A stretch of 49,413 nucleotides of DNA from the IMG/VR virus record IMGVR_UViG_2582580504_000002; one strand, given 5' to 3'. The notes below the pieces were generated by a model. That model was not told the DNA's origin. It saw only the letters and a list, made by a program, of their open reading frames with translations, and ran no database searches. The stretch is from a virus. Position 1 is the first letter of the stretch; each line of letters opens with the position of its first letter. The position numbers and the translations under genes are program-made. This document shows positions 11,364-29,298 of the stretch, piece after piece.

Positions 11364-12437
11364 ATGATAGAGAGTCGATGGGTGTTCTCCGACGATCGGC
11401 TACCCGATACGCTCCACCATCGGCGCGACGAACGCGACAAGTTACTGCGCGCGTTCGAGCCGCTAACCAGCGATAACCGGGCTGAGGACGTCTTGATCTC
11501 CGGGCCGTCCGGCGTCGGGAAGACCACGACCGTCCGGCACGTCCTCCGACGGGGCCTCCGTGATCATGGCTTCGACTCGGCGATCGTCAACTCGAGCAAT
11601 ACTCGCAGCGAGATCCTCCATGAAGCAGCGGTCAAGCATCCTACGGACACAGCAGTCCGTGCGCAGGCACCAGCCGAGAATCTCACTAGTACACTCGGCC
11701 AGATTGCCGATCGGCCATACGTAGTGGTTCTCGACGAGGCCGACACCATTCGCAACCTCGAGGTCGTCCGCGATCTCCTCGATGTCCCGAAGGTATCCGT
11801 CGTCGCGATCGCCCATAACCCACGCGAGTGGCTGGCCCGACTGGATGGAGAGGTCCAGAACTACTTCTCGATGCGCTCGCAGGTAGCGTTCGAGCGCTAC
11901 TCACAGGACGAGCTTGTGGACATCCTCGAACCACGGGTTGAGCAAGGTCTCGAATACGGAGCGATCCGTGACGAAGACGATTACCTGAGCTGGATCGCCG
12001 ACGAGGTCGCCGGGGTCGCCCGCTACGGGATCAAGTCTCTCTTATCCGCTGCGGAGTTCGCCGAAGAGCGCGACCACGATTACCTGCATGAGCGCGACGT
12101 CCGGGACTCGTTCGAGCGCGCGCGACAGAAGATGCGGAAAGCCAACCTCCGGTCGTTGCCGTTCGGTCCCTGTCTGATCTACGAACTGCTTCGGTACGCC
12201 GCCGACGATCTCGTTGAGGGGGCACGACTACACTCACTGTATGAGACCCACGCGCCGGCTGCTTACGCCGATCGGGACCACGAGCCCGTCTCACGGCGCC
12301 GGATCAACGACTATCTGACTAAGCTTGTCGAGTACGGGCTCATCGAACAACACGGAGAGAATAGATGGGCGGAGTACGAGGTGATCGATACGGAGCTCGG
12401 GGCCCCGGTTCAGCTGGAGCTACCGATAAACGCGTAA
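11364..12437 (+). CDS. cdc6: Cdc6/Orc1 family replication initiator
   Basis: Walker A GPSGVGKTT, Walker B VLDEAD, FERYSQDELVDIL, C-terminal winged helix; TATA CTTTTATA ~25 nt upstream. Confidence 0.93.
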   Translation: MIESRWVFSDDRLPDTLHHRRDERDKLLRAFEPLTSDNRAEDVLISGPSGVGKTTTVRHVLRRGLRDHGFDSAIVNSSNTRSEILHEAAVKHPTDTAVRAQAPAENLTSTLGQIADRPYVVVLDEADTIRNLEVVRDLLDVPKVSVVAIAHNPREWLARLDGEVQNYFSMRSQVAFERYSQDELVDILEPRVEQGLEYGAIRDEDDYLSWIADEVAGVARYGIKSLLSAAEFAEERDHDYLHERDVRDSFERARQKMRKANLRSLPFGPCLIYELLRYAADDLVEGARLHSLYETHAPAAYADRDHEPVSRRRINDYLTKLVEYGLIEQHGENRWAEYEVIDTELGAPVQLELPINA

Positions 12438-20687: not shown

Positions 20688-20770
20688 CCTATTGGGTCGC
20701 TATACTGCGCTTTATTTACTAATAAACGCTATGTGGTAGGTAACAAGCCGGCGTTGACAGCGCCGGTTCC
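20688..20770 (+). promoter_or_regulatory. AT-rich promoter with small inverted repeat and GC hairpin
   Basis: TTTATT-tact-AATAAA and CCGGCG-ttgacag-CGCCGG ahead of ATG 20790. Confidence 0.45.
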
Positions 20771-20789
20771 TCACAGATACTTCTCAACC

Positions 20790-21455
20790 ATGTCCGCAAC
20801 ACCAACCTCGAGCGACAGGTACCAGTGTAACCACTGCGGCGACTACGCTCCGGTCCACTCCTTCTTCGACGCGGCGATGTGTTCGGAGTCCTGTCGCCGA
20901 GCAGCGGACGCGGAGCCGATTATCAACACGATCAAACACGATCACACAACGTGCGTGACGTGCTTCCGCCGACTCAAGGTCATCGAGAAGCCGCCGGAAC
21001 GGGCCCCGTCGGCTGCAGTCGGCTTCCAGTACCGGACGGAGAACGCCACTTGGGGGGAGAAACAGCGTTCGTCCAGATCGCCGAGCGATGATCCAGACCT
21101 CCCATCGCTCAACCAGCAGGTCTACGCCTACGAGGTTCAGGACGAGACGTCCAGCGAGATCCGGGAGTACTACCCCGGCCGTCGGTACGATCGCGCCAAC
21201 GAACTCGAGCCAATGCCCCAGGCGAACGAACCGATCAAGACTGGGACGGTCTGCCACGTGTGCGGGAACTCGGAACACAACGTCGTCGATCCGGACCTTC
21301 GATCGAACTGCTCGACGATGCTGGTCGGCCATCACTTCACCGAGCGCGTTCGCGAACTCCCAGACAAGTCGATCGACGAACAGCGGTTCTGGGACACCTA
21401 CACGGAAGCGGACCGATCGATCCAAGACGCCGTCGAAGCGGCAGTGATCCTCTGA
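20790..21455 (+). CDS. Cys-rich zinc-binding hypothetical protein
   Basis: CNHC..CSESC, CVTCF, CHVCG motifs. Confidence 0.78.
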   Translation: MSATPTSSDRYQCNHCGDYAPVHSFFDAAMCSESCRRAADAEPIINTIKHDHTTCVTCFRRLKVIEKPPERAPSAAVGFQYRTENATWGEKQRSSRSPSDDPDLPSLNQQVYAYEVQDETSSEIREYYPGRRYDRANELEPMPQANEPIKTGTVCHVCGNSEHNVVDPDLRSNCSTMLVGHHFTERVRELPDKSIDEQRFWDTYTEADRSIQDAVEAAVIL

Positions 21456-21682
21456 TGCGAACCTACAGCGGTGACCCGATCGACGGCACGGTCCAGCACA
21501 TCTCCGAGCGACCGGCCCTCGAGGACGAGGCCGACGACGTCGTCTACGCGACCGACCCGGAGGACGCCGGCGAAGAGCGTACCGAGGGCGTCCCGGACCT
21601 CTCGGAGTCGGAGTCGGACGATGAACCGGAGCGCCCGGTCGTCAAGGGCCAGACGACGCTGCCCGAGTGGTCGTCGCTGTAG
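21455..21682 (+). CDS. Acidic hypothetical protein ending in a QTTLxxW motif
   Basis: TGATG overlap; very acidic. Confidence 0.65.
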   Translation: MRTYSGDPIDGTVQHISERPALEDEADDVVYATDPEDAGEERTEGVPDLSESESDDEPERPVVKGQTTLPEWSSL

Positions 21683-21749
21683 CTGATCCCCGATGACGGC
21701 CGCTGCCTCGGACGCTCACTATATTCGAGAGGCATGCTCGAGGGACCTC

Positions 21750-22200
21750 TACCCGCGACGAGACTGACACACCCAACGCGATCCTGCATTTGTCGTTCCC
21801 GGCAACTGGTGGTCGTGGGATCCAAACCACGGCTGGGGTTCAATTCCTCATGCCGGCCTTCCGATGACGTCGACGTCCGGCAGAGTGTCACGACCTGCCG
21901 GTAGCTGCGTGTTGCAGTTGGTCTCGAGTGGCGCTCGAGGCCCGCCGACTGAGGTAACGATGGGCTGTGACACGCCCAGATAGCTTCTCGCCGCCGCTCG
22001 AGGACTGGATCAGTCGTGTACCATGGACGGCATCTCTTCGATCGTCGCCACCGATCGACGCAGCCAATCTCCCGACCGACGCGAGTTCGTCTCTAGCGAT
22101 CAGGATCAGGAATCTCTGGTCGGTTTCGATCCACATAGCGCCACGAGCGCGGCGAGTACGCGGTGAGGGTTCGGCCGTCGTCTACCCTCGGGACAACCGA
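21750..22200 (+). ncRNA. Candidate large structured non-coding RNA
   Basis: TATA CTTATATT at 21718-21725; consecutive hairpins; complementary loops GTGTCAC (21885-91) and GTGACAC (21967-73); no convincing ORF. Confidence 0.55.
21798..21858 (+). ncRNA. tRNA-like domain (acceptor stem, T-arm and a single additional arm; about 60 nt)
   Basis: CCCGGCA/TGCCGGC acceptor (6 of 7 pairs), TGGGG-TTCAATT-CCTCA T-arm, CGTGG-GATCCAAA-CCACG arm; too short for a full cloverleaf. Confidence 0.55.
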
Positions 22201-22332
22201 GAGGATGGCGGCTCGCTCAGAGTGCCCGAGCGAAAGCGAGGAGATCGCTCGAGCGACCTACGGCCGCGAACCACACCCAGAGCCAGTCCGCTTTCCGTAC
22301 GCGACCATCCTGTAGTTTTCCATACCAGACAC

Positions 22333-22935
22333 ATGCCCGACCTACTCACAGACAACATCTACACGATCGCCGGCGCCGCGATCGCGACGATCGGCATCGC
22401 ACGGTTCTACTACGGGCCCCGATTCAGGGAGATCCCGTGGCAACCGCTCCGGCGCGTGTTCATCCCGATAGCACACAAGCTCGCCCAGCGGTCGGTCGGC
22501 GAGGAGTTCTACGCGAAGAACGAAGCGAAGCCGAAAGAACACGTCGCGACGCTCAAGGCGAAACCAGAGGCCGTTATCGAAGATCTCGGGGCCGCTGACT
22601 ACGTCGTCGAACCGCTCGCCGGCCTCAAGACGAACTGGAACGGGGACACGGAGGTCGCCTCCTACGCCCGCCACCGCGGTTCCCGACCGTTCCCCGGCGC
22701 GCCGGAGTGGCTTCGTCGACGGCAGGTCCATGTGACGTTGTTCCCGACAGCACCGGCACCGGACGGCTCCGTCGGCACGATCGTCACAGCCCACGAGGAA
22801 CTCAATTCGTGGCGCCCTGATCTCGCCGAGCGTCACTACCGGGGCGAGACGATGGACGTCCAGAAGGGTCGTGAACTCGCTGCCGCGGATCTTGGCATCG
22901 ACCTCGAGGACGACGACGCCAACGATGGATCATGA
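22333..22935 (+). CDS. N-terminally membrane-anchored haloviral protein
   Basis: IYTIAGAAIATIGIARFYY TM segment; LRRRQVHVTLF..AHEELN..HY; ATG 22333. Confidence 0.75.
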   Translation: MPDLLTDNIYTIAGAAIATIGIARFYYGPRFREIPWQPLRRVFIPIAHKLAQRSVGEEFYAKNEAKPKEHVATLKAKPEAVIEDLGAADYVVEPLAGLKTNWNGDTEVASYARHRGSRPFPGAPEWLRRRQVHVTLFPTAPAPDGSVGTIVTAHEELNSWRPDLAERHYRGETMDVQKGRELAAADLGIDLEDDDANDGS

Positions 22936-24619: not shown

Positions 24620-25378
24620 ATGGCAGCACCAGACGAGTTCCACGACGACGTCCATCCTGACGCCCGGGAGATCACGGGCGATCGCCGGTACGGCGAGTGG
24701 GGACAGTGCGTCGCGACCGCCAAGTCGACCGGCGAGCGCTGCCGTGGCTACGCTCAGGGCCCGCACGGGAAGTGTTCGACTCACGGTGGCTCCGAGGACT
24801 CCGGGGCCCCCGAGGGCAACTCGAACGCCGAGGGGAACGCCGGCGGTGACGGCGCCGAGGAGGGGAACACTCGAGCGGTCACCCACGGCGCCTACGCTGA
24901 CGAGAACTCCTTCTATCAGGACGTCCTCGATGACGATCTCCGCGACCTCGTCGACGATATCTGCGAGGACTACACCGAGCGCTACGAGCAGCGCCACGGT
25001 GAAGAACCGCCCGTCGGCCTCGAGATGGAGCTGTTCCGACTCTCGGTCTCCCACGTCAAGGACGTCGTCCTCGATCGGTGGGCGACCGAGAAGCCGGACA
25101 GCCTCGAGTCAGGGAACCCGTTGGTCGACCGCGAGACGGAGCGGGACTTCAACCCCGAAGACGGATCGGTCGTCGTCGAGTCGTACAAGGAATCGGTCGT
25201 CCTCACCGCACAGAAGCGCCTCTCGACCGACCGCCGGCAGTGGCTGAAGGATCTCGGCCTCCTGGACGATCCCGAGTCCCAGAAGGCCGAGGCGATGGAG
25301 GGCGGCTTCGAGTTCACGCTCTCGAGCGAGGACAAGCAGGAACTCGAGAATCGGTACGACGCTGAACCACAGACATGA
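24620..25378 (+). CDS. terS: Terminase small subunit
   Basis: CSTHGG..GAPEGNSNA..NTRAVTHGAY motifs; directly upstream of TerL. Confidence 0.82.
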   Translation: MAAPDEFHDDVHPDAREITGDRRYGEWGQCVATAKSTGERCRGYAQGPHGKCSTHGGSEDSGAPEGNSNAEGNAGGDGAEEGNTRAVTHGAYADENSFYQDVLDDDLRDLVDDICEDYTERYEQRHGEEPPVGLEMELFRLSVSHVKDVVLDRWATEKPDSLESGNPLVDRETERDFNPEDGSVVVESYKESVVLTAQKRLSTDRRQWLKDLGLLDDPESQKAEAMEGGFEFTLSSEDKQELENRYDAEPQT

Positions 25379-27036
25379 GTCAGGCGACGTCCCCGCAGCA
25401 GCAGGAGTTTGGACCGGATCACGCCCTGGCCCATCCGGCGAACGCATCGGAGATACTTTTCGACTACCCGCATGCGCCAGGCCCGCACCTCCAGAAGCTG
25501 TACACGCTGCTCTGGAAGGCCGTCGACGAAGACTACCCAAACGCCTCGACACGGATCGCGGCGCTGCTTCCTCGAGGCGAGGGGAAGAGCGAGGGCGGCG
25601 GCGTGGTCATCCCGACATGGCTGATCCTCCGGTTCCCTTGGATCCGGATCGCGGTCATCTCGAAGACGAAAGACCTGGCCGCCGAGCGGACGGCGAAGGT
25701 CGTCGACCGCGTCGACCACTACGCGCCTCACTTCGGGATCGAACTCGAGCAACCGCTCCCAAGTACCGAACTCGACACGGCCGAGAACGATCACAAGGAG
25801 TCGACGATCGCCCCGTACGGTCTCGAGAGCCAGGTCACCGGGAAGCACTTCGACGTCATCATCTGGGACGACATCGCGGACTGGGAGAACCAGCGGACCG
25901 AGACGCAGCGCCGAAACGTCCGGTCGTTCTTCCGTGACTACGAGAAGAACCTCCCCGATGGTGACACCGATCTCCCGAACGGGCCGGTCCAGCTGATGAT
26001 CGGCACCCGGAAGCACCCGCAGGACCTCTACGAGACGGACATCCTGTCCTCGAACCGGTGGAACACGATGGTCCACAAGGCCATCGCCGAGGAGGACTGG
26101 CCGCTCGTCGAGAACCGCGACTGGAAGGTCCGGGGGACCGACGGGGAGATCTACGACGGCGTCGCCGACTTGCCGCCGGGCGTCAACGTCGCCCCCGACG
26201 GCGTGATCCCGAACCGCGACGTCACCGTCATCTGGCCGGAACACCGGCCACCCGAGTCTGTCCTGTACGACCTCGTCGATAGCGAGGACTCGACGGCGAT
26301 CTGGCGGCGCGAGAACCAGCAGGATCCGGAGGCACTCTCCGGCGAGGTCTTCGAGAGCGACTGGCTGGTCTACGAGGACGCGCTCCCGAAGCCACCCTCG
26401 AGCTACCGGTGGGTCGCCGGCGTCGACGTCGGCGTTGTGGAGGACCTCCAGGAAGCGGCCCAGGGCGACTCGGACTTTTCGGCGCTGGCGATCGTCGCCG
26501 AAGACCGCTCGGATGATGCCGCGTACCTCTGCGGGCTCTTCCACGAGCGCGGGATGTCGGTCAAGCAGACGGCCGACTGGGCACTCGACCACCTCGAGAT
26601 GTTCGCCCGCGCTGACGACCGCCATGACGGTACCACTCTCGCCGACGTCGTCGACGATACGCTCGTGGAGGACGTCGGGCTCGAGACGCCGCACACGCTT
26701 TACTCCGAGATCCAGGTTGAGGCCAACAAGGCACCGGGCGTCGCCCAGCGGATGCGTGACTCGTCACGGTACCCTGCAGTCCCTGTGCAGTCGACGTCCG
26801 ACAAGGAAGGCCGGATCCACGATCTCGGTGCGAAGTTCGAGGCGGCCGAACTGCGGATAATCGGTGATCCGAACGCCGAGCGATGGCGGACGTTCGAGAC
26901 GGAGGAGTGGCTGCAGTTCCCGAACGCCGCCCACGACGATCGCCTGGACTCGATCGAGTTGGCGATGCGCGTCATCACGGGCGGCGGACAGAGCGAACTC
27001 AGCCAGTCCGAACACTCCTTCGACGATATCTTTTAA
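25375..27036 (+). CDS. terL: Terminase large subunit
   Basis: PRGEGKS Walker A, FDVIIWDD Walker B, GTRKH coupling motif, GVDVG and HDDRLDS nuclease aspartates. Confidence 0.95.
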   Translation: MSQATSPQQQEFGPDHALAHPANASEILFDYPHAPGPHLQKLYTLLWKAVDEDYPNASTRIAALLPRGEGKSEGGGVVIPTWLILRFPWIRIAVISKTKDLAAERTAKVVDRVDHYAPHFGIELEQPLPSTELDTAENDHKESTIAPYGLESQVTGKHFDVIIWDDIADWENQRTETQRRNVRSFFRDYEKNLPDGDTDLPNGPVQLMIGTRKHPQDLYETDILSSNRWNTMVHKAIAEEDWPLVENRDWKVRGTDGEIYDGVADLPPGVNVAPDGVIPNRDVTVIWPEHRPPESVLYDLVDSEDSTAIWRRENQQDPEALSGEVFESDWLVYEDALPKPPSSYRWVAGVDVGVVEDLQEAAQGDSDFSALAIVAEDRSDDAAYLCGLFHERGMSVKQTADWALDHLEMFARADDRHDGTTLADVVDDTLVEDVGLETPHTLYSEIQVEANKAPGVAQRMRDSSRYPAVPVQSTSDKEGRIHDLGAKFEAAELRIIGDPNAERWRTFETEEWLQFPNAAHDDRLDSIELAMRVITGGGQSELSQSEHSFDDIF

Positions 27037-27039
27037 ACC

Positions 27040-29298
27040 ATGTCACGGAACCCACAGCCCGGCGAGGACGCGTTCATCCACCCGCAGTACAGTAAGCGGC
27101 TGGCCAAGCAGAGCGCACTCGCCGGCCTTTCGACACAGACTGAACCGACACCTGACCCAAGCGGGGATAAGGAACACGAAGTCGGCGGGATCGTCCGACG
27201 GGCTAACGAGTTCCGGACCAACCTCGGCCCGGTCGCACTCGAGTCGATCGGCCTGCACGGGATGGAGATCTCGAAGGCGATCAAGCAGCGCGCCGACGAA
27301 CTCTACCGCAACCAGTTCCCGCGGTTCGAGCCCCGCTTTACCCGGAAGTGTACCGACTGCGGCTGTGAGTACGACGAGGAGATCGAGCGCTGCGACGAGT
27401 GTAACGCCCCGACCCGAGAACCGTCCCAGCAGCAGCGGACGGACGCCGAGGAGTTCTTCCGATCGGTCAACCGGGAGGGTCAGAGCCTACGCGAACTCTA
27501 CAAGTTCCTCGCTCGAGACGCGGGCCGCCTCGGCGTCTGGGTACACGTCGTCAAGAAGACCTACGGCGTCATCAACGGCGAGGTGATCGAGCGGATCGAC
27601 GAACTCGTTCGTGCGGATTCGAAGCGGATCAAGCCGGTCGTCGACACGAACGGCCGCATCGGGGGCCACTGGTGGGCCTGTCCAGTCCATCGGCCTCCGC
27701 ACGGAGATCACGACGTCGCCGAGGGGCCTGGTCGGTGCGACGAGTGTGGCGCCGATCTCCGCGAGGTTCACTTCGCGGAGGTTGAGGAGATTTCCGACGA
27801 CGAGCCGACGAAGGTCTACTTCGAAGACGAGGTCATCACGCATGCTCCGTTCGAGCCGCTGCTCGCCGGGCACGATGGGTTGTCACCGGTCGCCCCGATC
27901 TGGCTGAAGCAGGCGATCCTCGAGTGGATGGACCTCTACGCGGCCGGGTTCTACGATCAGGAGAACACGAACCGGTTCCCGGGCAAGATGGGCTTCGTCC
28001 ACACGACGAACAAGACCGCCGTCGAGAAGCAACTCGAGATGGCCCAGGACGAGAAGGACGAGGACGCCTACGCCCAGGGGTTCATCTACAACGAGATCCC
28101 GAGGGGAGCCGAGGGCTCGACTAACGAGGTCCAGGTCATCGACATGATGTCGGATGAGATCCTCGGCCAGTCCGACCAGCTGAAGAAGGACTACAAGAGC
28201 GACATCCGGTCAGTCTACGGACTGACTGATGCCCAGGACTCTGAACTCGAGGACGCCGGCGGTCTCAACAACGAGGGACTCCAGCTCGAGGTCAACGACC
28301 GAGAGAAGGCGGCCGCCCAGCAGGACCTTCGCGATGGCCCCCTCCAGAAGCTGATGGACGTCCTCGGGTACGACGACTGGCAGCTGACGTTCGTGCCCCC
28401 GCAACGGGAGGAAGAGGAGCCGTCGACGCTCGAGACGATCCAGGCGGCCGCGACGGCCAAGCAGAACGGGATCCCGATCGAGATCGAGGACGGCCAGGTC
28501 GAGATCCTCGACACCGACGGCCCGATGGACGTCGACGATCACGCTGGCGAGGATGCGGCCAGCGACGGGCCCGATGACGACCCTCCAACGGAGGTTGATC
28601 CACCCGACGCATCCGTCGACGTCGAAGCAGCGGGGACAGGAGGCCCTCGGAACGCCGATGAGTCCTACGCCGATCGGGACGAGGCGCTCCGAACGCTCGA
28701 GGAAGGGTTCAAGCACCTCGTCTGGCCGACCAACGACGAACTGATCGGCCTCGAACAGCAGTCCCGTGAACCGTTCTTCGCCGATGACGAGGACATGCCG
28801 CAGTTCGTTGAGGACCTCGTCGAAGAGGCGATCGAGCGCGGTGTGATCCATCTCGGTCAGTACGACGCGGCGAACGTCACGGGCAACGCGGTCAAAGACT
28901 TCCTCGAGGACCAGCTGACCCAGCCGCAGGGCTGGAGCCTCCGCTCGCTGGCCGAGAACTTCGCTGACCGGTGGAAGATCTCCGTCGAGGAAGCGATGGA
29001 CACGCTCCGGCCCCAAGTTGCGAGCGTCCTGAACGAGTCCCGGAAGATCGGCTACGAGCAACTGCCCGAGTCGGACGAACGCCTCTTCAAGTGGATCGGT
29101 CCAGACGACGAGGAGACGACTGACGCCTGCGAGTGGATGAAGAAGCGGACGAACCCGAAGTACGGCGGCGATCCGGTCACGCTCGATGAACTCGAGGATC
29201 TCATCGAGGAGGCCCAATCCCGCTGGTTCCCGTCGTTCAGCGGGGACATGGCGGTTCACTACAACGAACGCCACACGTTCGTGCAGCACTACGACTGA
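27040..29298 (+). CDS. Portal protein fused to a MuF/gp7-like head morphogenesis domain
   Basis: Follows TerL; portal-like core (GLSPV, ..VYGL); C-terminal FKWIGPDDEETTDAC...HYNERH; two zinc-ribbon insertions. Confidence 0.85.
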   Translation: MSRNPQPGEDAFIHPQYSKRLAKQSALAGLSTQTEPTPDPSGDKEHEVGGIVRRANEFRTNLGPVALESIGLHGMEISKAIKQRADELYRNQFPRFEPRFTRKCTDCGCEYDEEIERCDECNAPTREPSQQQRTDAEEFFRSVNREGQSLRELYKFLARDAGRLGVWVHVVKKTYGVINGEVIERIDELVRADSKRIKPVVDTNGRIGGHWWACPVHRPPHGDHDVAEGPGRCDECGADLREVHFAEVEEISDDEPTKVYFEDEVITHAPFEPLLAGHDGLSPVAPIWLKQAILEWMDLYAAGFYDQENTNRFPGKMGFVHTTNKTAVEKQLEMAQDEKDEDAYAQGFIYNEIPRGAEGSTNEVQVIDMMSDEILGQSDQLKKDYKSDIRSVYGLTDAQDSELEDAGGLNNEGLQLEVNDREKAAAQQDLRDGPLQKLMDVLGYDDWQLTFVPPQREEEEPSTLETIQAAATAKQNGIPIEIEDGQVEILDTDGPMDVDDHAGEDAASDGPDDDPPTEVDPPDASVDVEAAGTGGPRNADESYADRDEALRTLEEGFKHLVWPTNDELIGLEQQSREPFFADDEDMPQFVEDLVEEAIERGVIHLGQYDAANVTGNAVKDFLEDQLTQPQGWSLRSLAENFADRWKISVEEAMDTLRPQVASVLNESRKIGYEQLPESDERLFKWIGPDDEETTDACEWMKKRTNPKYGGDPVTLDELEDLIEEAQSRWFPSFSGDMAVHYNERHTFVQHYD

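What the first reader, a model, noticed from the sequence alone, without database searches (positions are those of the whole stretch)
21750..22200. Candidate large structured ncRNA with loop-loop complementarity, upstream of the lysis/packaging genes
Seen: after a TATA box (21718-21725), ~450 nt with no credible protein but consecutive helices: CCGGCAG/CTGCCGG (21877-21901), CAGTTGG/CCGACTG enclosing CTCGAG/CTCGAG (21915-21951), TGGGC/GCCCA (21961-21978), GACTG/CAGTC, TCGATCG/CGATCGA, CCGACC/GGTCGG and GAGGGT/ACCCTC. The loop of the first hairpin (GTGTCAC, 21885-91) is exactly complementary to the loop of the third (GTGACAC, 21967-73). GATCCTG (21780) could pair with CAGGATC (22101). Known: loop-loop pairing underlies phi29 pRNA oligomers, and large structured RNAs (GOLLD, ROOL) occur in bacterial prophages near tRNAs. 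I know of no such RNA described for archaeal tailed viruses. Caveat: high GC inflates hairpin counts.
Basis: partly seen in the sequence, partly recalled or inferred. Interest (0 to 1): 0.8.

Follow-up and report, generated by a model that had tools for sequence, protein, structure and literature searches.

The report
New structured RNA in haloarchaeal viruses

Summary
They are no more than chance gives. The fold z-score of 21750-22200 is -0.16. There are 13 seven-base inverted repeats against 11.5 expected. The loop-loop 7-mer occurs only in this window.

Comparison of 16 related Natrialbaceae tailed viruses and proviruses shows a conserved + strand RNA of 345-491 nt (window 21861-22290) that matches no Rfam 15 family. 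My 77-pair model pairs in 94.6% of cells. Forty pairs show double compensatory changes, against 20.6 when shuffled and 7-13 when slid.

The RNA has:
- a 5' kink-turn with invariant G.A/A.G pairs
- an H-type pseudoknot (P4/P5) that joins its two halves
- a loop-to-strand pairing (PK1)
- a 3' domain with a GAAA hairpin and an invariant GGACAAC loop

A D-armless tRNA-like element ends 1-4 nt before the RNA in 12 of 16. Genuine tRNAs follow it in three relatives.

My inference is that host RNase P and tRNase Z excise the RNA, host L7Ae binds it, and it acts as a stand-alone viral RNA. Its function is unknown, and no transcript data exist.

The parts
21798..21858 (+). tRNA-like element (t-element-like). 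It has an acceptor-like stem CCGGCA 21800-05 / TGCCGG 21851-56, a middle hairpin CGTGG/CCACG, and a T-arm TGGGG-TTCAATT-CCTCA at 21834-21850. There is no D arm.
   Evidence: ARAGORN finds no tRNA. Rfam gives only a weak mascRNA (tRNA-like) hit, E=0.1. A T-loop GGTTCRAnTCC is present in 12/16 homologues. T-stem pair 16-30 covaries as AU 5, GC 4, CG 3. The acceptor stem is only marginal against shuffles, Fisher p about 0.05.
21861..22290 (+). Core of the conserved structured RNA, 430 nt here and 345-491 nt in the homologues.
   Evidence: Alignments A3-A5. The covariance model R1 of its 3' part scores 111-165 bits in 16 distinct sequences. The 77-pair model pairs in 94.6% of cells, with 40 pairs showing double changes against 20.6 shuffled and 7-13 slid. 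G-U cells number 85 against 22 A-C cells, which points to the + strand.
21861..21868 (+). Kink-turn, bulged strand: C-stem CC 21861-62, bulge GAU 21863-65, G1b A2b 21866-67, 3b C 21868.
   Evidence: CCGRUGA is present in all 16. G6 and A7 are invariant. The register is fixed by the covarying P1 that follows it.
21950..21954 (+). Kink-turn, non-bulged strand: 3n U 21950, G2n A1n 21951-52, C-stem GG 21953-54.
   Evidence: GAGG is invariant in 15/15 and in L268.
21869..21875 (+). P1 5' strand GTCGACG. It pairs with 21943-21949 (CGCCGAC) and forms the non-canonical-side stem of the kink-turn.
   Evidence: 7 pairs, 5 with double changes, 93% of cells paired (helix 2).
21877..21919 (+). Two optional hairpins inside P1. 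P1b is AGCTGC/GCAGTT (21903-21919, loop GTGTT).
   Evidence: P1a has letters in 6 of the 15 aligned sequences and is invariant there (helix 1). P1b covaries by eye: GCUGC/GCAGC, AUCGU/GCGAU, ACCGU/GCGGU. Both are absent in L009, L016 and L263-L267.
21923..21939 (+). P2 hairpin CTCG/CGAG. Its loop TGGCGC 21929-34 pairs with GCGCCA 22138-43 to form pseudoknot PK1.
   Evidence: P2 is invariant in 15/15. PK1 pairs in 91% of cells, and 3 of its 6 pairs show double changes (L009 TGGTGA/TCACCA, L015 TCGCGC/GCGCGA). Its second pair is mismatched in 7/15.
21961..21978 (+).
   Evidence: A hairpin occupies this position in every homologue, with unrelated sequence and loop.
21987..21999 (+). P4 5' strand: CTCGCCGC 21987-94 plus GCTC 21996-99. 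It pairs with 22145-22156.
   Evidence: 12 pairs, 9 with double changes, 94.8% paired. It was found by an unbiased column-pair scan. L268 adds a new U-A pair.
22002..22008 (+). P5 5' strand GGACTGG. It pairs with CCAGTCC 22283-22289 and crosses P4, giving an H-type pseudoknot.
   Evidence: The third pair is GC 9, GU 4, AU 2. L009 extends it as GGGCTGGTG/CACCAGCCC, and L015 has GGGGCTGC/GCAGTCCC.
22009..22137 (+). Variable expansion region.
Evidence: Its length varies widely and it is not alignable beyond close relatives.
22157..22270 (+). 3' domain: P6 22159-64/22263-68, P7 22167-69/22257-59, P8 22174-81/22205-12, P9 22186-91/22197-202 with loop GGACAAC, P10 22213-23/22247-56, and P11 22225-31/22236-42 with GAAA at 22232-35.
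   Evidence: RNAalifold gives 33 pairs, 15 with double changes. The single-sequence minimum free energy fold equals the comparative fold, z = -4.03.
22316..22319 (+). T4 run, 14 nt before the ATG of the next gene (22333). It is a possible archaeal terminator or a leaky stop.
   Evidence: Read directly from the sequence. The motif TTTT(T)CCATAC recurs before the same gene in relatives, including some that lack the full RNA. Its function is not tested.

Best explanation
The gap 21683-22332 encodes a member of a previously undescribed family of large structured non-coding RNAs. The family occurs in temperate tailed viruses and plasmid-like proviruses of Natrialbaceae haloarchaea. The RNA is on the + strand, with its core at 21861-22290.

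Shown by comparison:
- The RNA starts with a standard kink-turn: CC/GG C-stem, GAU bulge, invariant G.A and A.G, then the covarying stem P1.
- P1 encloses hairpin P2, whose loop pairs with a strand about 200 nt downstream (PK1).
- Two further long-range helices form an H-type pseudoknot: P4 (21987-99 with 22145-56) and P5 (22002-08 with 22283-89). The loops of this pseudoknot are a variable expansion region and a compact 3' domain, which carries a GAAA tetraloop hairpin and an invariant GGACAAC loop.

Inferred:
- The RNA is made as part of a longer + strand transcript.
- The host tRNA-processing enzymes cut it out. tRNase Z would cut at the 3' side of the upstream tRNA-like element, giving a 5' end 1-4 nt before the kink-turn. 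In relatives, RNase P would cut at the 5' side of the tRNAs that follow.
- Host L7Ae binds the kink-turn.
- The resulting particle acts in trans during the viral cycle. It would be a functional analogue of the tRNA-associated phage RNAs GOLLD and ROOL rather than a homologue.

Its biochemical job is unknown.
For: Conservation. The gap upstream of the phrog_6788 gene is 640-830 nt in six relatives that carry the full RNA (L006-L009, L016). nhmmer and Infernal find both halves in 16 distinct sequences. These include the complete replicons CP084881.1 and CP084477.1 of two Natrinema strains.

Distribution. R1 hits 9/151 genomes of the family, one copy each, and 0/150 further genomes of the order.

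Structure. 94.6% of cells pair against 83.5% shuffled. 40/77 pairs have double changes against 20.6 +/- 2.4 shuffled (0/500 as high) and 7-13 when the partners are slid. RNAalifold on the 3' part gives 15/33 covarying pairs. The 3' domain folds at z = -4.03 into the same structure. L268 was found after the model was fixed and fits every helix, with new compensations in P4 and P8.

Strand. 85 G-U cells against 22 A-C cells.

Non-coding..

Not a known family. No Rfam match at gathering score, and only three chance-level hits at E<=10.

tRNA context. A T-arm with a canonical T-loop is present in 12/16 and ends 1-4 nt before the kink-turn. Real tRNAs lie between the RNA and the next gene in L006, L009 and L016: Trp; Phe and Tyr; Met and Trp.

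Literature. In Haloferax, tRNA-like t-elements are substrates of RNase P and tRNase Z, and tRNase Z cutting at one of them makes the 5S rRNA 5' end (PMC4326828). [quoted passage not shown] The hosts have one chromosomal L7Ae gene and none on the viral replicon.
Against: - There are no expression data, so transcription, ends, processing and L7Ae binding are all inferred.
- The model was derived from the same alignment on which it is scored. Only L268 is independent.
- The 16 sequences are related, and some are close: L002/L004/L008, and L263/L265.
- The kink-turn C-stem (CC/GG) and P2 never vary, so they have no covariation support.
- The second pair of PK1 is mismatched in 7/15.
- The acceptor-like stem of the tRNA-like element is barely better than shuffles and is poor in L006-L008.
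- The element is absent in 4/16 (L015, L016, L017, L266), and downstream tRNAs occur in only 3/16.
- The whole core folds at z = -0.74 only.
- In 10 or more of the 16 homologues the RNA sits about 40 nt before the next start codon, which would also suit a cis-acting leader.
Confidence: 0.62

Rival explanations
1. The same conserved structure acts in cis, as a long structured leader or attenuator of the late (egress and packaging) operon. Folding, protein binding or processing would decide whether transcription or translation runs on through the T-run at 22316-19 into the gene at 22333.
For: The RNA lies on the same strand as both neighbours and ends about 40 nt before the next ATG in most homologues. 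A T-rich run directly precedes that ATG in many relatives. No conserved promoter was seen for either the RNA or the downstream gene. The upstream stop codon abuts the conserved RNA sequence in L266, which suggests co-transcription.
Against: In L006, L009 and L016 one or two complete tRNAs lie between the RNA and the gene, so tRNA processing would sever the leader from the message. A multi-pseudoknot RNA of 350-490 nt with a variable expansion domain is far larger than known attenuators. The T-run motif also occurs in relatives without the full RNA, so it belongs to the gene rather than to the RNA.
Confidence: 0.2
2. One reading: a chain of local hairpins whose first and third loops kiss (GTGTCAC/GTGACAC), possibly forming pRNA-like oligomers used in packaging.
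For: The complementary segments exist in the window. The RNA lies upstream of the terminase genes.
Against: The loop-loop helix pairs in 48% of cells, and overall covariation is at shuffle level. The first hairpin has letters in only 6 of the 15 aligned homologues, and the third has unrelated loops elsewhere. Seven-base complementarity occurs 13 times in the region against 11.5 expected. There is no Rfam pRNA hit. The virus has an ordinary small and large terminase pair.
Confidence: 0.03
3. It is a DNA-level element or debris: an attachment site built on a tRNA fragment, a replication or packaging site rich in palindromes, or a decaying tRNA cluster with no RNA function.
For: A tRNA-like fragment is present and the window carries integrase-like genes. 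Relatives have tRNA genes and one truncated tRNA-Trp-like remnant at this locus. Many segments are palindromic, for example CTCGAG and GACGTC.
Against: G-U pairs outnumber A-C 85 to 22, which a double-stranded DNA site would not show. Helices up to 280 nt apart covary. The tRNA-like element has the same flanks in a chromosomal copy (L263) and a small-contig copy (L265), so it is not a recombination junction. The integrase-like genes are more than 20 kb away. The Cdc6 gene is about 10 kb away.
Confidence: 0.05

Closest known systems
GOLLD and ROOL RNAs of bacterial phages and prophages
   Same: They are large, multi-pseudoknotted non-coding RNAs of unknown function, encoded by (pro)viruses and often beside tRNA genes (10.1101/2024.12.08.627333). 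Here the RNA is flanked by a tRNA-like element and, in relatives, by tRNAs.
   Different: There is no sequence or structure homology: no Rfam hit even at E<=10. The host domain is Archaea. This RNA is smaller (345-491 nt) and has a kink-turn, so a protein partner is likely, whereas ROOL and GOLLD are reported as RNA-only cages. Oligomerisation is untested.
t-element upstream of Haloferax volcanii 5S rRNA
   Same: A tRNA-like structure lies directly 5' of a stable RNA, so tRNase Z cleavage would create that RNA's 5' end. t-elements are substrates of RNase P and tRNase Z (PMC4326828). Here the element's acceptor-like 3' strand ends 1-4 nt before the kink-turn.
   Different: Processing has not been shown here. 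The acceptor stem is statistically marginal. The downstream RNA is a viral orphan RNA, not rRNA. The element is missing in 4/16 homologues.
MALAT1 / mascRNA (tRNA-like end processing of a long ncRNA)
   Same: The only Rfam model that touches the region is mascRNA, at 21805-21857 with E=0.1. A tRNA-like module used as a cleavage signal for a long non-coding RNA follows the same logic (from my own knowledge of MALAT1 processing).
   Different: MALAT1 is eukaryotic. Its module sits at the 3' end of the long RNA, not the 5' end. The Rfam score of 22.5 bits is well below the gathering score of 42.5, so this is resemblance and not membership.
Kink-turn RNPs of archaea (box C/D sRNAs, RNase P RNA, rRNA Kt-7) bound by L7Ae
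   Same: A three-nucleotide bulge is followed by invariant G.A and A.G pairs, between a G-C C-stem and a further helix. That is the standard kink-turn definition (PMC5061560 abstract).
   Different: This is not a box C/D guide RNA. The covarying P1 fixes a register in which the second GA of CCGAUGA makes the sheared pairs. There are no C'/D' boxes and no free guide. There are no RNase P conserved regions and no Rfam hit.
phi29 pRNA
   Different: The proposed kiss is not conserved. There is no Rfam hit. Packaging here has a conventional small and large terminase pair.

Membership tests
Standard kink-turn | Three-nucleotide bulge followed on its 3' side by tandem G.A and A.G pairs | tested here: met
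   5' CC|GAU|GA|C-P1 and P1-U|GA|GG 3'. G6, A7, G94 and A95 are invariant in 15/15 and in L268. This is a sequence-level test only; the geometry was not tested.
Standard kink-turn | Watson-Crick C helix on the 5' side of the bulge and a continuing NC helix after the G.A pairs | tested here: inconclusive
   The NC side (P1) covaries strongly, with 5 of 7 pairs showing double changes. The C helix is only two invariant C-G pairs, so it has no covariation and is short.
Standard kink-turn | Binding by an L7Ae-family protein | not testable with these tools
   The hosts carry one chromosomal L7Ae gene. Binding needs a gel-shift assay.
tRNA (Rfam RF00005) | Cloverleaf with D arm, anticodon arm, T arm and 7-bp acceptor stem, scoring above the model threshold | tested here: not met
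   ARAGORN finds 0 genes in the window. No RF00005 hit appears, even at E<=10. There is no D arm, and the middle hairpin has an 8-nt loop.
t-element (haloarchaeal tRNA-like processing signal) | Acceptor-stem plus T-arm mimic lying next to the RNA it helps to mature | tested here: inconclusive
   The T-arm is conserved and covaries. The acceptor-like stem is 6-8 bp in 9/12 sequences but marginal against shuffles. Its position 1-4 nt before the RNA is constant.
t-element (haloarchaeal tRNA-like processing signal) | Cleavage by tRNase Z and RNase P | not testable with these tools
   This needs in vitro processing or 5'-end mapping.
GOLLD / ROOL | Match to the Rfam covariance model | tested here: not met
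   cmscan of the whole window at gathering score gives 0 hits. 21300-22700 at E<=10 gives three unrelated weak hits.
phi29 pRNA | Conserved intermolecular loop-loop complementarity and a match to the family model | tested here: not met
   The loop-loop helix pairs in 48% of cells across homologues. There is no Rfam hit.
Box C/D sRNA | Boxes C (RUGAUGA) and D (CUGA) with C'/D' boxes and free guide sequences | tested here: not met
   CCGAUGA and CUGA are present. However, covariation puts the strand next to box D into P1, so no guide is free. No C'/D' boxes were seen. The only C/D hit is on the minus strand at E=1.5.

The most novel reading that the evidence does not exclude
This is the first large, complex RNA class specific to archaeal viruses. 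It would be an L7Ae-bound ribonucleoprotein or ribozyme-like RNA, made by the tRNA-processing machinery, that acts on tRNAs, ribosomes or host RNA metabolism during infection. That would make it an archaeal counterpart of GOLLD and ROOL, possibly also self-assembling, with a biochemical activity not yet described.
Probability: 0.3. Interest if true: 0.9.

Novelty: new variant of a known kind. Interest (0 to 1): 0.75.

Why it matters
Large RNAs with several pseudoknots and covarying long-range helices are rare. Where their function is known they are mostly ribozymes or core ribonucleoproteins.

None has been described for archaeal viruses. The 2021 survey of archaeal tailed viruses does not mention non-coding RNAs at all (PMC8651126), and Rfam 15 has no matching family.

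This family offers several things:
- a tractable case, because two complete Natrinema genomes carry it on 57-58 kb replicons
- a natural example of a virus using a tRNA-like element, probably to define the end of another RNA
- a possible viral client, or sponge, of the host kink-turn protein L7Ae
- a test of whether the puzzling link between phage tRNA islands and giant RNAs extends to Archaea

Tried and rejected
It would wrongly have 'refuted' the RNA, because the fold is pseudoknotted and includes a variable insert.
- The phage collection had no DNA match. The terminase finds only distant hits.
- No whole genome is held for the window.
- My first motif scans of genome and metagenome collections were too loose. 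Only near-duplicates of L002 and L004 came out. L018, L021, L050 and L059 are chance matches.
- One call was wasted on a malformed pattern.
- I first paired GACUGAG with CUCUCGUC. The column scan showed instead that CUCGYCGC pairs with the 3' half (P4) and that GAC belongs to P1.
- I considered a box-C/D register for the kink-turn. P1 covariation excludes it.
- The attachment-site reading of the tRNA-like element is rejected, because its flanks are the same in chromosomal and small-contig copies.
- Coding potential is rejected. The 179-aa gene called over the RNA in L015 is most likely spurious.
- A constrained single-sequence fold of the variable region did not enforce my constraints, so I did not use it.
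- The protein atlas gave nothing on the syntenic zinc-finger protein.
- Weak partial model hits in the shorter gaps of L010, L012 and L013 could not be resolved into a homologous fold.

Full report
CONTEXT. The window is a whole 49.4-kb contig of a tailed archaeal virus or plasmid-like provirus. It encodes:
- a Cdc6-like protein at 11364-12437
- a small terminase at 24620-25378
- a large terminase at 25375-27036
- a portal at 27040-29298
- a minor tail protein and a tape-measure-like protein
- two integrase-like genes near the ends

. No host genome is held for it. The finding lies in a 650-nt gene-free gap (21683-22332) between two + strand genes: a 75-aa acidic protein ending at 21682, and a 200-aa protein of PHROG 6788 starting at 22333.

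THE OBSERVATION. Taken on this sequence alone they are not more than chance:
- Exact inverted repeats of 5 to 8 nt are at the level of composition-matched random sequence. For 7-mers the count is 13 against 11.5 +/- 5.0.
- ARAGORN finds no tRNA.
- Rfam finds nothing at gathering score in the whole window.
- At E<=10 the only relevant hit is the tRNA-like mascRNA model at 21805-21857, E = 0.1.

HOMOLOGUES. I used the downstream protein to fetch relatives.
- Full-RNA carriers fetched this way keep a 640-830-nt gap in front of the gene (L006-L009, L016).
- The carriers include two complete Natrinema replicons of 57-58 kb (CP084881.1 and CP084477.1), and contigs of N. salsiterrestre and Natrarchaeobius oligotrophus.
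- In three relatives the gap holds genuine + strand tRNA genes just before the protein gene. L006 has Trp. L009 has Phe and Tyr. L016 has Met and Trp.
- Alignment of the gaps shows blocks of strong conservation separated by a variable stretch.
- A covariance model of the 3' block (R1) finds one copy in 9 of 151 genomes of the host family, 3 of 31 in the genus, and none in 150 other genomes of the order.
- A motif scan of viral contigs added L268.
- In total there are 16 distinct sequences. All score 111-165 bits, and all carry both the 5' and the 3' block.
- The core runs from CCGRTGA to CCAGYCC and is 345-491 nt long.

THE REGION IS NOT CODING. Each of the six frames has stops in most homologues, and different frames happen to be open in different sequences. 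Substitutions show no three-base periodicity. The 179-aa gene that the source called over this stretch in L015 is therefore probably spurious.

STRUCTURE, 3' BLOCK. RNAalifold on the 3' block gave 33 pairs, 15 of them with double compensatory changes.

STRUCTURE, LONG-RANGE HELICES. An unbiased scan of all column pairs of the 15-sequence alignment A4, together with inspection, gave the following:
- P1 (21869-75 with 21943-49).
- P4 (21987-94 and 21996-99 with 22149-56 and 22145-48). P4a is canonical in every cell where both sides have letters at seven of its eight positions.
- P5 (22002-08 with 22283-89). The window has GGACUGG/CCAGUCC where most relatives have GGGCUGG/CCAGCCC. L009 and L015 carry further compensations.
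- PK1, the loop of hairpin P2 (21929-34) pairing with 22138-43. L009 has TGGTGA/TCACCA and L015 has TCGCGC/GCGCGA.

P4 and P5 cross each other. The core is therefore an H-type pseudoknot with a 2-nt first loop, and its two long loops are the variable region and the 3' domain.

STRUCTURE, SCORES. Scored as a whole (77 pairs):
- The model pairs in 94.6% of cells, against 83.5 +/- 0.6% in shuffles.
- 40 pairs have changes on both sides, against 20.6 +/- 2.4 (0 of 500 shuffles as high).
- Only 7-13 pairs do so when the 3' partners are slid by 1-3 columns.

The structure was derived on this same alignment, so these numbers flatter it. L268 was found afterwards and fits every helix, adding new compensations in P4 and P8. 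The 3' domain alone (22157-22270) folds at z = -4.03 into exactly the comparative structure. G-U cells outnumber A-C cells 85 to 22, so the + strand is the RNA.

THE 5' END IS A KINK-TURN. With P1 fixed by covariation, the invariant CCGAUGAC and UGAGG read as follows:
- C-stem C-G, C-G
- bulge GAU
- G.A and A.G pairs
- a C.U 3b.3n pair
- then P1 as the NC helix

This is the standard kink-turn arrangement, which binds L7Ae-family proteins (PMC5061560 abstract). The four G and A positions are invariant in all sequences. The C-stem is short and never varies, so that part rests on sequence logic only. The hosts have a single chromosomal L7Ae gene and none on the viral replicon.

THE tRNA-LIKE ELEMENT. 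In 12 of 16 homologues, 21798-21858 or its equivalent has three parts: a T-arm with the canonical T-loop, an acceptor-like stem, and one middle hairpin. There is no D arm.
- The second T-stem pair covaries as AU 5, GC 4, CG 3.
- The acceptor-like stem is 6-8 bp in nine sequences. It changes by compensation between groups: CCGGCA/TGCCGG in the window, CCCGGCG/CGCCGGG in L268, and GCCGGAG/CTCCGGC in L264.
- In this G+C-rich DNA that is only marginally better than shuffles, with Fisher p about 0.05 on related sequences.
- The 3' strand of the acceptor-like stem ends 1-4 nt before the kink-turn in every case.

In Haloferax, such t-elements are substrates of RNase P and tRNase Z, and tRNase Z cutting at one of them makes the 5S rRNA 5' end (PMC4326828). 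I therefore infer that the element defines the 5' end of the RNA, and that in L006, L009 and L016 RNase P at the following tRNAs trims its 3' side. The element is not an attachment junction. It has the same flanks in a chromosomal copy (L263) and a small-contig copy (L265), and the integrase-like genes are more than 20 kb away.

Scored on the same alignment:
- It pairs in 61.7% of cells against 60.3% shuffled.
- 16 pairs have double changes against 13.1, with 60 of 500 shuffles as high.
- The loop-loop helix pairs in 48% of cells.
- Hairpin 1 is an optional insert. It has letters in only 6 of the 15 aligned sequences and is invariant there.
- Hairpin 3 is a hairpin conserved in position but variable in sequence (P3).
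- CTCG/CGAG is P2.
- CAGTTGG/CCGACTG, GACTG/CAGTC and GAGGGT/ACCCTC conflict with the covarying P1, P5 and P7/P9.
- The two hairpins at 22038-22123 lie in the variable region.
- The TATA-like ACTATATT is not conserved. It sits in the loop of an upstream hairpin that itself looks like a second kink-turn module (see the items noticed in passing).

WHAT IT IS AND HOW IT WORKS.
Shown:
- A conserved, + strand, non-coding, pseudoknotted RNA family.
- It is restricted, in what I searched, to tailed viruses and proviruses of Natrialbaceae.
- It matches no Rfam 15 family.

Inferred:
- Excision by tRNA-processing enzymes.
- L7Ae binding.
- Action in trans.

The closest analogues are GOLLD and ROOL. These are large pseudoknotted phage RNAs of unknown function that often lie near tRNA islands (10.1101/2024.12.08.627333). 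There is no homology to them.

The main rival is a cis-acting leader of the late operon. The intervening tRNAs in three relatives argue against it, but it is not excluded.

NOVELTY. The survey of archaeal tailed viruses that I checked does not mention non-coding RNAs (PMC8651126). Literature searches found no description of such an RNA.

Noticed in passing
window 21688-21745: This looks like a second kink-turn module right after the upstream stop codon. It reads CC-GAU-GA-C-GGC ... The same CCGATGAYGG ... YCGAGG frame recurs in L004, L006-L009, L011-L013, L263, L265 and L267, with changes in the NC stem that keep pairing: G-U to G-C, and C-G to U-A in L009. This was judged by eye only.
   Followed up: partly
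L006:2910-2985; L009:2711-2783 and 2908-2980; L016:2701-2772 and 2903-2978; L266 (- strand, about 60 nt after the RNA): Relatives carry genuine tRNA genes between the RNA and the late gene: Trp; Phe and Tyr; Met and Trp. L266 has a truncated tRNA-Trp-like remnant that ARAGORN does not call. The window has lost these or never had them.
   Followed up: yes
window 22293-22303 (CTTTCCGTAC); relatives L004, L002, L008, L263, L264, L266: A motif of the form YCCCTACCC-TTTCAGTAC recurs about 10 nt before the tRNA-like element and before tRNAs. It also recurs about 10-20 nt after the RNA's last helix, as if it punctuates each RNA unit. It could be a processing or termination signal, or a recombination scar.
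   Followed up: no
window 22314-22325 (GTTTTCCATACC): A T-run followed by CCATAC lies directly before the start codon of the PHROG 6788 gene. It is conserved in relatives, including L011-L014, which lack the full RNA. It is too close to the ATG for a normal TATA box.
   Followed up: no
L010:2688-3000, L011-L013:2651-3000: More distant relatives have a shorter gap of about 315-350 nt. It keeps the upstream kink-turn-like hairpin and a hairpin with a GGRCAAC loop, which gives weak partial hits to model positions 40-78 (E 0.016-0.12). This may be a reduced or divergent version of the RNA.
   Followed up: partly
window 20733-21682 and the equivalent genes in L006-L013, L016, L017: Two genes lie just upstream of the RNA wherever it occurs. 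One is a zinc-finger protein of 188-247 aa (PHROG 18924, no Pfam family). The other is a small, mostly acidic protein ending ...GQTTLPEWS. Either could be a protein partner or regulator, but I found nothing about their function.
   Followed up: partly
L015:1449-1988: The source's 179-aa gene call covers the whole RNA. No frame is conserved across homologues, so the call is probably spurious.
   Followed up: yes
L267 (- strand), about 180 nt upstream of its RNA: A second T-arm-like sequence (GGAGGGTTCGAGTCCCTC) sits directly before the upstream CGATGACGG module. In this provirus, therefore, both kink-turn modules are preceded by a tRNA-like piece.
   Followed up: no
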